Shown here: positions 1 to 62,968 of the stretch, one piece after another | Position numbering within the stretch: the stretch's first letter is position 1 | Layout of the letters: every line of letters begins with the position of its first letter | Origin: Cyanophora paradoxa CCMP329 | Lineage: Eukaryota > Plantae > Glaucophyta | Direction: 5' to 3' | Length of the DNA: 64,000 nt | NCBI GenBank assembly: GCA_004431415.1 | Contig: QPMI01000068.1 | Span: forward strand, 62,001 to 126,000 | Translations under genes and position numbers: made by a program | The notes under the pieces: model-generated | Database searches by the model: none | What the model was told of the DNA's origin: nothing | The model's input: only the letters and a program-made list of their open reading frames with translations

Positions 1-735
1 AAGTCTCACATCTAGAGTCTCAACCTCAACCAAGCCATTCTGCTCGTGAACGATCATGGAATTATTCGATGAATCATATTTTAATAGACTGCCAACCGTT
101 TGGTCAATCTCAATTTTTGCAATAGCATTGTTATCTCGTTTGTTATTGCTCACATATCTTCCTTTCAGTGGATCAACATGAAGAAGCAAATAGGAATTAA
201 ATAGGAGATCTAATGGCATTTCACTATCAATGTAGTGAGCATAAGTAAAGGCTCCAACTGTGACATTAGATGATAGAGGACTCGATTGATAAAGTGTGTT
301 TGCATTTTCAAAACCGCAGAAATTGGCTAAGAGTTGAGTGTTCATAGTGATTGAGAATGGAACCTCGCACATAAACCTTAGAAGCAATGTTGTGGGATCA
401 TAGGTTACATAGAAATGGCGAGTGTAAGTTCCGCCACCCGCTTGATTATAGGGCTGGGATCCAATGCGAGCGATCAGATAATTCACCAGTGAATCGGGTG
501 TATATGCACCTCGGAGGACTTCGTTGTTTCTATTCTTTGGGTTCCCAGCATTATCGAGTGTTTGAGTGGTGAGGGTTCCTACTTCAGAGAGGTTGTAAAG
601 ATTGTGAAACATCTCAAAGTTCGTTACTCGACAGGCTCTGACCTTTTGGATCGCATAAGGGAGTCTGTATGTGAAATTAGTTGGGGTTCCATCCGATCGG
701 TCCCTGGAATCAATATTGAGATAGTAACGCGTCAT
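1..735 (-). CDS. Minor capsid (penton-like) protein, runs off the window
   Basis: ATG at 735 reads MTRYYLNIDSRDRSDGTPTNF...; IDSRDR motif of single-jelly-roll pentons; homologous to 54414-55312. Missing from the ORF track because its stop is outside the window. Confidence 0.8.
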   Translation of the reverse strand, partial: MTRYYLNIDSRDRSDGTPTNFTYRLPYAIQKVRACRVTNFEMFHNLYNLSEVGTLTTQTLDNAGNPKNRNNEVLRGAYTPDSLVNYLIARIGSQPYNQAGGGTYTRHFYVTYDPTTLLLRFMCEVPFSITMNTQLLANFCGFENANTLYQSSPLSSNVTVGAFTYAHYIDSEMPLDLLFNSYLLLHVDPLKGRYVSNNKRDNNAIAKIEIDQTVGSLLKYDSSNNSMIVHEQNGLVEVETLDVRL

Positions 736-787
736 TCTGTTTAATAAAGCATTTTAAAAATTTCTTTTGGTATTTTAAACATAAGAG

Positions 788-2014
788 ATGGCACTCACTG
801 GAACTACCCTTAAGGAATTACTCGTAACTCCCGGTTCCGATCAAATTTATCTGTCCCCTGGTCTCCAGATTGGAACCAACCCCAAATACAAACCATTCCT
901 CGAGCAAGTTCGTCCCCGAGGCAATACTTTTGGCTTTAAGAATACCGCTTACTTTGATCTACCTCGCAAGCAACTCCTTGCTGGTGTTTCGCTCTATTTC
1001 AAGATTGCCACTGGTGGTGGTGTAGCCTGCACCCTCCCCAATGGTGGTTCTTCCTATATTAATGAGGTCCGCTTTGTTCATGGTGGTTTCAAGTATATCA
1101 TCCCTGGTGACTGGATTACTGTGAATGCTCTGGTTGATACTGATCACGCTACCATGGGCAGCATGTATGCTTCTCTCGGTTACTTCAAAGAACTTGATCG
1201 TGAAAGCACAGATGAGGCTATGGAATACATTGTTAAAATCCCCGCTGCTTTCTGGGATGATGCTTACTTCCCACTATGCAAACTGGCGGATATGCCAACA
1301 ATTGAGGTTGATTTCCGTGATGCTGCAATTGTCCAGGTTCCCGCCGGTGGATCTGTTACCTTTGCGGATTGCTCTCTGATCTGCCAATTCGTTAACATCG
1401 CTTCGGCTGAGGCTGAGACACTCTTGAAGATGGCGAACGAACAAGGTGGCATTCGCATTCCGATCACAGAGGTCATCCACAAGAAGACCCGAGCGCTCAA
1501 AACCGCTGATGCTGGTGAATCGGTTGAGGTGACACTCGCTAATGTTTCCGGTCTGGTTCATTCGATTCTTATGACTGTTCGAGAGGTGAACAAACTGAAC
1601 ACCTACACTCATTCTGATTTCTGTGGTCATGTTTCGGATGTTAAGATTGATCAGTTCCAGATCTTCCACAACAATCGCTCCCTTGATATCTCCAACAAAC
1701 CCATTTCCGGTTTCCTCTCGGCAATGAATCACATTCCATCCCATTATAAGGGCGTTTCAGTTGGCAATACCACCTATGGATTCGAGTCTGGAAATGTTTA
1801 CGGAATTGTTCTATCCAAATCCGGAAAGGATTCACTCCACAACTCGGTTATGGGTTACCAGGATTTCTTCAACAGCAGTTCGAGTTACATGGATCTCACT
1901 GTTTCCGGATGCACTGATGCCGCTCCTGTTCAGGTTGATATCTATGCCCTCCGACACAATGTTATGGTACTCAATGGCTACAACATCTCTACCCTGAAAG
2001 TCTCGAACTTCTAA
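788..2014 (+). CDS. Major capsid protein (double jelly-roll), S family
   Basis: 408 aa; FGFKNTAYFDLPRKQLL and C-terminal VDIYALRHNVMVLNG resemble NCLDV/PLV DJR MCP motifs; lies between penton and packaging ATPase. Confidence 0.8.
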   Translation: MALTGTTLKELLVTPGSDQIYLSPGLQIGTNPKYKPFLEQVRPRGNTFGFKNTAYFDLPRKQLLAGVSLYFKIATGGGVACTLPNGGSSYINEVRFVHGGFKYIIPGDWITVNALVDTDHATMGSMYASLGYFKELDRESTDEAMEYIVKIPAAFWDDAYFPLCKLADMPTIEVDFRDAAIVQVPAGGSVTFADCSLICQFVNIASAEAETLLKMANEQGGIRIPITEVIHKKTRALKTADAGESVEVTLANVSGLVHSILMTVREVNKLNTYTHSDFCGHVSDVKIDQFQIFHNNRSLDISNKPISGFLSAMNHIPSHYKGVSVGNTTYGFESGNVYGIVLSKSGKDSLHNSVMGYQDFFNSSSSYMDLTVSGCTDAAPVQVDIYALRHNVMVLNGYNISTLKVSNF

Positions 2015-2131
2015 GCGCGGTTTCGCCCGCGCGCAACGACCGAAGGAAGTAGATTCTTTTCTTTCGTTAGAGTAGGAAGCGCAATTATTTGCAGGTGTGT
2101 ACTTTATTTTGTTTTTTATCTTATTACTGTA

Positions 2132-61145: not shown

Positions 61146-62203
61146 TGGAGAATATTCTATCATACAAAAAATACAAACAGAAGCTCATTAGTGAAGGGAA
61201 GGAATTTGATGAGGCGGAACTGAGAAACAAGTATAAGAATTCCGAACTGCATCAAATTTTCAAGAAGCCTAGGAAAAAGACTACGTTTTTAAGAATAGTT
61301 GCCCAGCCATACTCATTTCAGGTTGATGTCATGTTTTTCAGAAAGTTTAAGACAGCAAATTATGGATATATTAAAGCGCTTAGTTTCATTGACATTCTAA
61401 GTAGAAAGGCATTTGTGTATGCTTTCAAGACCAGCGAAGAGATTCCGGGAATACTTAATAAATTCAAGGGCGAAGCAGGTAAGGTTGTAGGATTGGCAGG
61501 GGATAATGAGTTTTCCAGTGCGGTTTATCGAACTTGGTGCAGTGAAAATGGTGTCGAATTGTATACAGATGTTGCGAAAGAAGATCACATTTCTGCTGGG
61601 AATAAACTTGGGATAATCGATCGATTCACTCGAACCTTCAAACAATACATGAACAAACTCATGGTCTCGAGGAATACTTCGAAGTGGGTCGAATTAATCC
61701 CAGATGTGCTAAAGGCTTACAATAACTCGCCTCATTCATCACTGAACAATGATTCCCCAAACCAAGTGTTTGCAAGTCCACAGAAGCAAATGTTTATTTT
61801 CCTAAAAACCACCAAGCATAACATGGATGTTAAAGAGAATCAACCCGATAAAATCAAACCAGGAGATACTGTAAGAGTTTTAGAGGAGAGAGGTGCATTC
61901 TCAAAGGAAGGCCCCAGGTTTAGTCAGAAGATTTACAAAGTAGCTGGGAAAGATGCTAATCGATTCAAGGTGCTTGAAGATAATGGAGATGATGCAGAGG
62001 AATTAAAGAGACGTTTTAAGCAACAAGAGTTACAGAAAGTGAAACGAGATGAGATAATGAAAATTCCACAGCAAATGAGGATTCAAGCTGTAAAGAAAAC
62101 AAACACAGTGAATCGAAAAGTTGCAAAAGAGGGAATCAAACCAAATCGCAGCAAAGTTGTTAGAAAAAGGTATCAATTAAGAAGCGGATTAACTAAAAGG
62201 TAG
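61145..62203 (+). CDS. rve-type integrase (D-D-D triad)
   Basis: FQVDVM, IDILSRKA, GDNEF, IIDRFTRTFK, YNNSPHSSL, FSKE...FSQKIY. Confidence 0.9.
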   Translation: MENILSYKKYKQKLISEGKEFDEAELRNKYKNSELHQIFKKPRKKTTFLRIVAQPYSFQVDVMFFRKFKTANYGYIKALSFIDILSRKAFVYAFKTSEEIPGILNKFKGEAGKVVGLAGDNEFSSAVYRTWCSENGVELYTDVAKEDHISAGNKLGIIDRFTRTFKQYMNKLMVSRNTSKWVELIPDVLKAYNNSPHSSLNNDSPNQVFASPQKQMFIFLKTTKHNMDVKENQPDKIKPGDTVRVLEERGAFSKEGPRFSQKIYKVAGKDANRFKVLEDNGDDAEELKRRFKQQELQKVKRDEIMKIPQQMRIQAVKKTNTVNRKVAKEGIKPNRSKVVRKRYQLRSGLTKR

Positions 62204-62394
62204 TTGGGTGTAATGCATATAACTTCGATTGATTAGATTTTAGATATAACTTCGATTAAATAAAATAGATTGTGACTGAGGCTTACTGAGATTTACTGAG
62301 ATTGGGGATTGGGTTACTGGGAATCATGCGGATATTGCTTGAAGGGGCAAATTATATTGGGGTAATTTTTGGGTGTAATGCTCACAGCTCAGCT
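62204..62394 (-). repeat. Right TIR of S2
   Basis: Reverse complement of 50930-51120; begins right after the integrase stop codon. Confidence 0.95.
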
Positions 62395-62968
62395 CAACTT
62401 TCATTAGCCGCGCCAGCAAATCACGTATTACAACATGCCGTTATCGATAATGTCGATGGTTTAGAATCTACCGAACTTGCACCTACTCTTAATACTTTTG
62501 GTGATACGCATAAATTGCGACTCAAAGAGTTAAGATGTGACAAAAATAACGGAGTTGTGAAAACTACGAAACTTCTTGTTACAAATGCAAACTTTAACGC
62601 TTTTTATGGAGATCCCGATAGTTACAATGATGATAACAAGGTAACAAACTTTGCTTATGAATCGAGAAACGGAGCGATTAAATGTAGATCGGGTGGCGCT
62701 TACATTGGGGACGGACTAAGAGTTGGTGGTATCATTGGAGCGCCTCTTTTGGTTAATGATCAACCAAACCCCGATGATGAGAACACACGAATTAGGACGT
62801 ATTGCCCAGGTATGAATGAGCCTTACCTAATAAAGATTTATACAATCATTATTAGTTTACAAACAGCGGTAGCCGATGTATTAGAACCCTTAGGAAATCA
62901 TTATAGATATAGAGACACGATACCAGAGGACATTTACGCATTATGTAGAAGAACCGACGGAGCCGTAA

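What the first reader, a model, noticed from the sequence alone, without database searches (positions are those of the whole stretch)
1..62400. Virus-in-virus nesting: a small PLV family inserted twice into structural genes of a larger PLV family
Seen: S2 (50930-62394) splits an L-type virion-protein paralogue with a perfect 6-bp TSD. A separately diverged S1 copy ends at 4454 inside the L major capsid gene. Known: rve integrases of Polintons and mavirus make ~6-bp TSDs. Inference: S may be a hyperparasite or satellite that targets L genomes. It could knock out L capsid or fibre genes, or borrow the fibres, lipase and pPolB that S lacks. Alternatively it may simply favour AT-rich islands in a GC-rich host. 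Only two insertion events support this.
Basis: partly seen in the sequence, partly recalled or inferred. Interest (0 to 1): 0.85.

Follow-up and report, generated by a model that had tools for sequence, protein, structure and literature searches.

The report
Small virus nested in larger viruses
Two copies of a small DNA virus have inserted into genes of larger, distantly related viruses already sitting in what is likely an algal genome, but the small virus carries its own capsid, integrase and likely polymerase genes and unrelated jumping elements hit the same DNA, so this is most likely a known kind of pile-up rather than one virus preying on another.

Summary
The nesting is real. S2 (50930-62394) has perfect 191-bp inverted ends and a 6-bp target duplication, and splits a small L gene whose unsplit form is in contigs of 4 of 4 runs laid. 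An S1 end at 4454 cuts an L capsid gene exactly where homology stops; its other end lies outside the window.

The satellite reading is weakened. S encodes its own double-jelly-roll capsid, packaging ATPase, rve integrase and a likely polymerase-helicase fusion of the Tlr1 type, so it does not appear to lack a polymerase. Two unrelated GC-rich elements (21- and 16-bp duplications) also split L genes here. Virion-module genes fill 61-68% of this L DNA, so two hits in them is unremarkable. Both capsid types are already catalogued in Cyanophora paradoxa, and virus-in-virus nesting is reported in Halocafeteria.

A rough calculation does find two S hits in 33.5 kb of L DNA unlikely under uniform insertion if S has 20-94 copies. 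Some bias towards viral islands is therefore probable. Whether it is L-specific could not be tested, because no genome is held. The scan noted comparable nests on other DNA.

The parts
1..4454 (.). S1: right-hand part of an S-type PLV (minor-capsid-like ORF 735->1, MCP 788-2014, A32 ATPase 2132-2890, terminal repeat region ending at 4454); runs off the window
   Evidence: MCP 97.6% aa identical to the S2 MCP
4455..4460 (+). CCACCT, presumed target-site copy at the S1 end; the partner copy is outside the window
   Evidence: duplication not verifiable
4455..4930 (-). 5' third of the L1 major capsid gene, cut by S1
   Evidence: 84% aa identical to the L2 MCP over 161 aa; homology ends at the junction
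4983..11277 (.). L1 virion module: two minor-capsid-like ORFs, F5/8 (discoidin) ORF, patatin lipase, fibre-like gene
   Evidence: weak phage tail-fibre matches
11278..18831 (+). GC-rich (64%) retroelement-like insertion in the L1 fibre-like gene; 21-bp duplication at 11257-11277 and 18832-18852
   Evidence: weak RNase H match E 0.022; no RT match in 15 further frames
18832..20150 (+). Continuation of the L1 fibre-like gene region; meets the inverted L2 fibre-like gene near 20150, both truncated
20151..39284 (.). L2: fibre-like gene, patatin, F5/8, minor-capsid-like ORFs, intact MCP (27493-28863), A32 ATPase, primase-D5 helicase (34360->31883), pPolB (34836-37923, two ORFs), rve integrase (37935-39284)
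   Evidence: MCP 58% identical to Cyanophora paradoxa protein P0001
22105..24258 (-). GC-rich (77%) insertion in the L2 patatin gene; 16-bp duplication at 22089-22104 and 24259-24274
43405..50929 (+). L3: decayed fibre-like gene (start lost, about 57-bp deletion with an in-frame stop), two C1q ORFs, small ORFs, first 15 codons of the split gene
50924..50929 (+). Left target-site copy CAACTT
50930..62394 (.). S2: complete 11,465-bp S-type PLV with 191-bp perfect TIRs
52444..53055 (-). S2 A32-type packaging ATPase (3' end frameshifted relative to S1)
   Evidence: Pox_A32 E 1.8e-14
53135..54361 (-). [quoted passage not shown]
   Evidence: model pLDDT 65, pTM 0.73; Foldseek to PBCV-1 capsid E 4e-20, TM 0.65; 24% identical to the L2 MCP, E 1e-16
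54414..55312 (+). S2 minor-capsid-like ORF (frameshift near 54488 in the window; run contigs carry one more letter there)
   Evidence: (table 4)
56698..61145 (+). S2 likely pPolB-palm / SF1-helicase fusion (Tlr1 type), in two overlapping ORFs in the window
   Evidence: motifs, atlas, Pfam SF1 helicase E 3.4e-5; run contigs are one letter longer within 59864-60647 (table 8)
61145..62203 (+). S2 rve-type integrase
   Evidence: rve_3 E 0.008, below cut-off; 25.5% identical to the L2 integrase, E 2e-20
62395..63081 (+). Right target-site copy (62395-62400) and the rest of the split L gene; its tail turns GC-rich near 62950

Best explanation
S is a compact Polinton-like virus with its own capsid, ATPase and integrase genes and a likely Tlr1-type polymerase-helicase, and its copies likely pile up in AT-rich islands of older viral DNA because insertions land or survive there more often, not because S hunts or needs L. 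Shown: element ends, 6-bp duplication, empty site, capsid fold, ATPase, and two other elements inside L genes. Inferred: S copies itself with the polymerase-helicase and integrates with its rve integrase; it has spread recently (perfect TIRs, run contigs 0.3% different over 4.6 kb); and the bias comes from integrase preference for AT-rich or silent DNA, from purging of insertions in host genes, or both. Each insertion inactivates one L copy, but intact sister copies of the gene hit by S2 remain.
For: Own DJR MCP, A32 ATPase and integrase. Palm motifs DISKAY / K..AN..IG / KTDE plus Walker A and SF1 motifs; motif C lacking its first Asp is as described for Tlr1-type proteins (PMC11161782 section 9). 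Atlas top score 0.95, with 24 of 30 hits in DNA_pol_B_2-bearing clusters. Two unrelated GC-rich elements with 21- and 16-bp duplications also split L genes, so 2 of the 4 insertions mapped in L DNA here are not S. The two S target sequences share only 4 of 6 letters (P about 0.08) and lie in unrelated genes. Virion-module genes cover 61-68% of L DNA here. The L3 target copy is decayed. The empty site is 1.2-2.6 times as deep as the S2 core in 4 runs, so S2 is not a fixed passenger of this L gene. The same nesting is reported in Halocafeteria: 5 PLVs and 9 virophages inside other viral elements.
Against: Under uniform insertion, the expected number of 33.5-kb L blocks with two or more S hits is 0.001-0.11 for 20-94 S copies, and a 3- to 13-fold enrichment would be needed. 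That is a large bias and also what targeting would give; with 272 copies no enrichment is needed. The flanks of other S copies could not be read. S2 has no fibre, discoidin or lipase gene, while L has several. The polymerase call rests on motifs and a language-model search: Pfam, PDB and the protein search gave nothing and the single-sequence fold failed (pLDDT 33.5). The S2 integrase has Asp where L2 has the third catalytic Glu, so integration by an L integrase in trans is not excluded.
Confidence: 0.6

Rival explanations
1. S integration is directed to L elements (for example by an integrase or accessory protein tethered to L DNA), so S rides on or disables L genomes, as type 1 Ngaro retrotransposons do with endogenous mavirus-like elements.
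For: 2 of 2 S ends seen with a flank lie in L genes, from two different S subfamilies. Uniform insertion is a poor fit for 20-94 copies. Precedent: 91% of type 1 Ngaros lie in EMALEs (PMC8547959 passages). Contigs at the S2 end carry short flank stubs at depths above the low-copy level (212 and 500 against about 100 in X14), so some ends share 2-4 flanking letters.
Against: The window was picked as a virus cluster and is 70% L outside S. Two unrelated elements hit the same L DNA. There is no shared target sequence or gene. With about 20 ends, shared 2-4-letter stubs are expected by chance or from weak target preference (inference).
Confidence: 0.17
2. S is a helper-dependent satellite: it makes its own capsid but borrows L fibres, discoidin and lipase for entry, whether or not it targets L DNA.
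For: S2 is 11.5 kb, below the 14-40 kb given for PLVs (PMC12220804 passage), and has no homologue of the L entry proteins. S and L minor-capsid-like proteins are related (22-27%).
Against: S and L MCPs are only 24% identical, which makes shared vertices unlikely (inference). S has its own replication and packaging genes. Inserting into L capsid and virion genes would destroy what a satellite needs. Spread inside one genome needs no entry proteins (established for transposing Polintons, recalled).
Confidence: 0.1
3. There is no bias: S inserts uniformly, and a genome with hundreds of PLV copies yields such a double nest by chance.
For: C. paradoxa is listed with 366 MCPs in two clusters of 272 and 94 (PMC10120064 supplement). 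With 272 S copies, 0.2-0.9 such blocks are expected.
Against: Depth ratios suggest about 20-40 close S MCP copies (rough; the tool warns that depth is no copy number). Which published cluster is S is not known. Four insertions in 33.5 kb suggest a hotspot.
Confidence: 0.1
4. The nests are long-read assembly artefacts joining repeat copies.
For: The window has indel errors in S2 (table 4). None of the 32 contig pieces shown (of 52 laid) bridges the filled junction at 50929/50930.
Against: A mis-join would not give an exact 6-bp duplication at both ends of perfect TIRs with one reading frame continuing across it. Contigs drop rare variants, so the missing bridge is no evidence.
Confidence: 0.03

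Closest known systems
Endogenous PLVs of Cyanophora paradoxa catalogued by MCP (Bellas et al. 2023, PMC10120064, supplement tables S1, S2, S4)
   Same: Table S2 lists an MCP whose first 60 residues match the S2 MCP at 58 positions (compared by eye) and MCPs of the L type, one of them the same protein as P0001. Discoidin and patatin genes in glaucophyte PLVs are noted in PMC12220804.
   Different: These sources list genes, not element structure. 'Nested' does not occur in the PMC10120064 main text or in its three stored supplement files (file 2 was cut when stored).
Tlr1-type PLVs with RVE integrase and pPolB-S1H fusion (Tetrahymena Tlr1; Krupovic et al. 2024, PMC11161782)
   Same: rve integrase plus one large protein with palm motifs A-C (first Asp of motif C missing), an SF1 helicase, Cys/His motifs where the vOTU would lie, and a Cys-rich C-terminus.
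   Different: S2 is only 11.5 kb and its MCP belongs to a group with few relatives (5 plausible among 1.84 billion representatives, 22-25% in alignment). No sequence match to Tlr1 itself was tested.
Nested virophages and PLVs of Halocafeteria seosinensis (bioRxiv 10.64898/2026.07.28.741278)
   Same: Viral elements inside other viral elements (5 PLVs, 9 virophages), mixed with MULE and LINE insertions; the authors call viral DNA an insertion hotspot.
   Different: Different host and virus groups; here both partners are PLVs with related MCPs.
Ngaro retrotransposons in endogenous mavirus-like elements of Cafeteria (PMC8547959)
   Same: A mobile element concentrated in AT-rich endogenous viruses of a GC-rich host; the model for real targeting.
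   Different: Ngaro is a retrotransposon with measured preference (91% for type 1); S is a capsid-encoding DNA virus with two events and no measured preference.

Membership tests
Polinton-like virus (element S) | [quoted passage not shown] | tested here: met
Polinton-like virus (element S) | A32/FtsK packaging ATPase | tested here: met
   Pox_A32 in S1 and S2
Polinton-like virus (element S) | [quoted passage not shown] | tested here: inconclusive
   candidate beside the MCP, related to L candidates; no family match; not folded
Polinton-like virus (element S) | Terminal inverted repeats, with a 5-6-bp target duplication when rve-integrated | tested here: met
   empty site
Tlr1-type PLV | RVE integrase | tested here: met
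   weak Pfam rve/rve_3 matches and E 2e-20 to the L2 rve integrase
Tlr1-type PLV | pPolB palm domain upstream of a superfamily 1 helicase in one protein | tested here: inconclusive
   motifs, atlas 0.95 and helicase match favour it; the fold failed; two ORFs in the window, with an indel in run contigs in the interval that holds their overlap, exact place not shown
Tlr1-type PLV | vOTU domain before the palm | tested here: inconclusive
   DCL at 404 and NDHV at 505 by motif only; no Pfam match for 57880-58260
Bona fide Polinton or virophage (element S) | Ulp1-type maturation protease (defining feature recalled) | tested here: not met
   no protease family among the 9 S2 ORFs scanned; one 102-codon frame at 56393-56701 was not scanned
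Virophage (element S) | Virophage-type MCP | tested here: not met
   the fold ranks PBCV-1 and iridovirus capsids first and mavirus 49th
Satellite of L | Lacks own capsid or replication genes | tested here: not met
   MCP, ATPase, integrase and likely polymerase-helicase are present
Satellite of L | Needs L for particle formation or spread | not testable with these tools
   needs induction and virion analysis
Targeted hyperparasite (Ngaro-like) | Genome-wide excess of insertions in the host element | not testable with these tools
   no genome held; run contigs gave flank stubs of at most 4 letters; no S ends in viral or metagenome collections
Polinton-like virus (element L) | MCP, ATPase, pPolB and rve integrase within TIRs | tested here: inconclusive
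   genes present in L2; no TIR pair enclosing an L copy was found in the window

The most novel reading that the evidence does not exclude
S is a PLV whose integrase is steered to the genomes of another PLV lineage: a virus that parasitises the integrated genomes of a related virus, disabling their capsid genes or travelling with them, in a glaucophyte alga.
Probability: 0.17. Interest if true: 0.75.

Novelty: new member of a known kind. Interest (0 to 1): 0.35.

Why it matters
If the pile-up reading holds, this is a tidy example of how endogenous viruses of protists are inactivated by later insertions. It also defines a compact (11.5 kb), recently active Tlr1-type PLV in a cultured alga, useful for testing whether such polymerase-helicase fusions are active. 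If targeting is real, it would be a virus-on-virus parasitism acting on integrated genomes, not reported in the papers that the 8 searches returned. It could be tested at once by mapping S ends in a long-read assembly.

Tried and rejected
No whole genome was available, so neither the genome-wide test nor the left S1 end could be examined. A 20-nt S terminal motif found 0 matches in viral and metagenome contigs. Related-locus scans found no relatives for the S polymerase region and the S MCP in viral contigs, or for the L MCP in metagenome contigs. Word-based protein searches found nothing for the S MCP or the S polymerase region. BLASTP of the S2 long ORF against the L2 pPolB was not significant, and PDB sequence search gave chance hits only. 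The single-sequence fold of the polymerase region was unusable. P0004 (a plant jacalin-domain protein) was dropped from the MCP alignment as a repeat-driven hit, leaving 5 of 6 hits. The giant-virus early-promoter motif AAAATTGA (recalled) occurs 5 times against 5.6 expected, so there is no support for shared induction. No contig among the 32 pieces shown bridges the filled S2 junction; contigs drop rare variants, so this was not used as evidence. No RNA holder was listed, which says nothing about expression. Rejected: S2 as a fixed passenger of the L gene (the empty site is deeper than the S2 core), and a shared target sequence (4 of 6 letters, P about 0.08).
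Full report
Layout. The window is a cluster of AT-rich (39-45% GC) viral DNA broken by GC-rich (60-77%) blocks. Two families are present. S has a partial copy S1 (1-4454) and a complete copy S2 (50930-62394). L has three partial copies: L1 (4455 to about 20150), L2 (about 20151-39284, inverted relative to L1) and L3 (about 43400-63000). The L2 MCP is 58% identical to a Cyanophora paradoxa protein, and a published table lists C. 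paradoxa MCPs of both the S and the L type (S match 58 of the first 60 residues, by eye). The host is therefore likely this glaucophyte alga or a close relative (inference).

The observation. S2 has 191-nt perfect inverted ends and CAACTT on both sides. It interrupts a small gene after codon 15, and the frame resumes across the duplication. That gene shares its N-terminal region with three upstream L3 ORFs (29-40%), two of which end in C1q heads; a virion role is inferred, not shown. The unsplit gene exists as DNA: a joint skipping 11,471 bases with 6 letters fitting both sides is in 3 of 4 runs, and flank contigs read on into the right flank in 4 of 4 runs. S1 ends at 4454 with the same terminal letters as S2, exactly where the L1 MCP stops matching the L2 MCP. 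Its second end is outside the window and no genome is held. S1 and S2 are different subfamilies (MCP 93%, ATPase 81% nt), so these are two events.

What S is. The S MCP, folded with 7 relatives, gives a model of pLDDT 65 that matches PBCV-1 and other double-jelly-roll capsids (E 4e-20, TM 0.65). It is 24% identical to the L MCP. S has an A32 ATPase, a RING protein and an rve-type integrase.

The S polymerase. The long ORF at 56698-60003 carries DISKAY (710), K..AN..IG (838) and KTDE (953), in the order of motifs A, B and C of the L2 pPolB, then a Walker A motif; the overlapping ORF 59946-61145 has the remaining SF1 helicase motifs (Pfam E 3.4e-5). For residues 680-990, 24 of 30 atlas look-alikes are in clusters where 15-25% of members carry DNA_pol_B_2, top score 0.95. 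Run contigs are one letter longer within 59864-60647, the interval that holds the ORF overlap (table 8), so the split is probably an assembly indel; another S2 frameshift at 54488 is contradicted in 4 of 4 runs (table 4). This is the pPolB-S1H layout of Tlr1-type PLVs, predicted in print to be an active polymerase despite the missing first Asp of motif C (PMC11161782, passages and section 9). Against this call: no Pfam, PDB or protein-search match, and a failed fold. S2 does lack any homologue of the L fibre-like, C1q, discoidin and lipase proteins.

Copy state. The tool warns that contig depth is no copy number, so these are rough. The TIR end is 2.0-2.4 times as deep as the S2 core in 4 of 4 runs, as expected for full-length copies. 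The core is 7-10 times and the empty L gene 10-18 times as deep as a low-copy variant of the window. A 4.6-kb core contig differs from S2 at 14 letters and one gap. So S2 belongs to a recently amplified group, and most copies of the L gene it hit are empty. Flanks of other S copies appeared only as stubs of 1-4 letters (32 of 52 pieces shown), so their targets are unknown.

Is L targeted? For: both S ends with a visible flank are in L genes. A rough Poisson model on a 100-Mb genome gives 0.001-0.11 expected L blocks with two S hits for 20-94 S copies, needing 3- to 13-fold enrichment; with 272 copies it gives 0.2-0.9 and needs none. The genome size and MCP counts (366; clusters of 272 and 94) come from the PMC10120064 supplement. 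The header of that row was not seen, and which cluster is S is unknown. Against: L DNA here also holds a 7.55-kb GC-rich element in a fibre-like gene (21-bp duplication; weak RNase H match) and a 2.15-kb GC-rich element in the patatin gene (16-bp duplication). Virion-module genes cover 61-68% of the 33.5 kb of L DNA, so two hits in them has P 0.38-0.46. The two S targets are unrelated genes with 4 of 6 letters alike (P about 0.08). The L3 copy is decayed: its fibre-like gene has lost its start and has a deletion with a stop. The data point to a bias towards viral islands and cannot separate a general hotspot from L-specific targeting.

Comparison with print. bioRxiv 10.64898/2026.07.28.741278 (passages and section 8) reports 5 PLVs and 9 virophages inside other viral elements in Halocafeteria and calls viral DNA an insertion hotspot; its supplements are closed. 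PMC8547959 (passages) gives real targeting of EMALEs by Ngaro retrotransposons. PMC12220804 (passages) reports GC-rich retroelements nested in PLV genes, 6-bp duplications for rve PLVs, and discoidin/patatin genes in glaucophyte PLVs. PMC10120064 (passages and supplement rows) catalogues both MCP types. PMC12721341 and PMC8502044 were seen as passages only. Eight searches returned no paper that describes one PLV family targeting another or nesting in Cyanophora; most hits were seen as listings only, and subscription papers are not covered. Earlier scan notes on other genomes describe similar nests; I did not check them.

Verdict. The feature is real and well formed: a new, compact member of the Tlr1-type PLVs in a known kind of nested arrangement. 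The hotspot reading gets 0.6, L-directed targeting 0.17, satellite dependence 0.1, pure chance 0.1 and artefact 0.03. Interest 0.35.

Noticed in passing
window 39285-43100: GC-rich (60%) block directly after the L2 integrase, with two divergent ORF-like regions broken by short AT-rich stretches (possible introns), 31-bp tandem repeats (40650-40817) and a palindrome (41323-41388). Host DNA, a transposon or an L terminal region.
   Followed up: partly
window 31710-31806 and 43151-43243: A 97-bp non-coding motif repeated in inverted orientation (84%) encloses primase-helicase, pPolB, integrase and the GC block; possibly an origin or an old terminus of a replication module.
   Followed up: no
window 26420-26954 / 26956-27490: Exact 535-bp tandem duplication of the 3' half of an L2 minor-capsid-like gene; real or assembly artefact.
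   Followed up: no
window ~20150: L1 and L2 fibre-like genes meet tail to tail, both truncated, with no terminal repeat: a rearrangement between two L copies.
   Followed up: partly
window 62950-64000: The gene split by S2 turns GC-rich near 62950 and loses similarity to its paralogue; the flank 63127-64000 is deep in run contigs (2,200-3,750 in three runs), so a further multi-copy element may start here.
   Followed up: partly
window 43335-43409: A 75-bp near-perfect hairpin replaces the start of the L3 fibre-like gene.
   Followed up: no
window 4056-4409: The S1 terminal region holds a diverged tandem duplication of about 170-190 bp of its TIR-internal motif.
   Followed up: no
window 51826-52293: S2 encodes a RING-finger protein (Pfam zf-C3HC4_2, E 4e-6) just inside its left TIR; no counterpart was seen in S1.
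   Followed up: no
window 31883-37923: L2 encodes both a primase-D5 helicase and a pPolB, the latter in two ORFs and with an endonuclease-VII-like insert.
   Followed up: no
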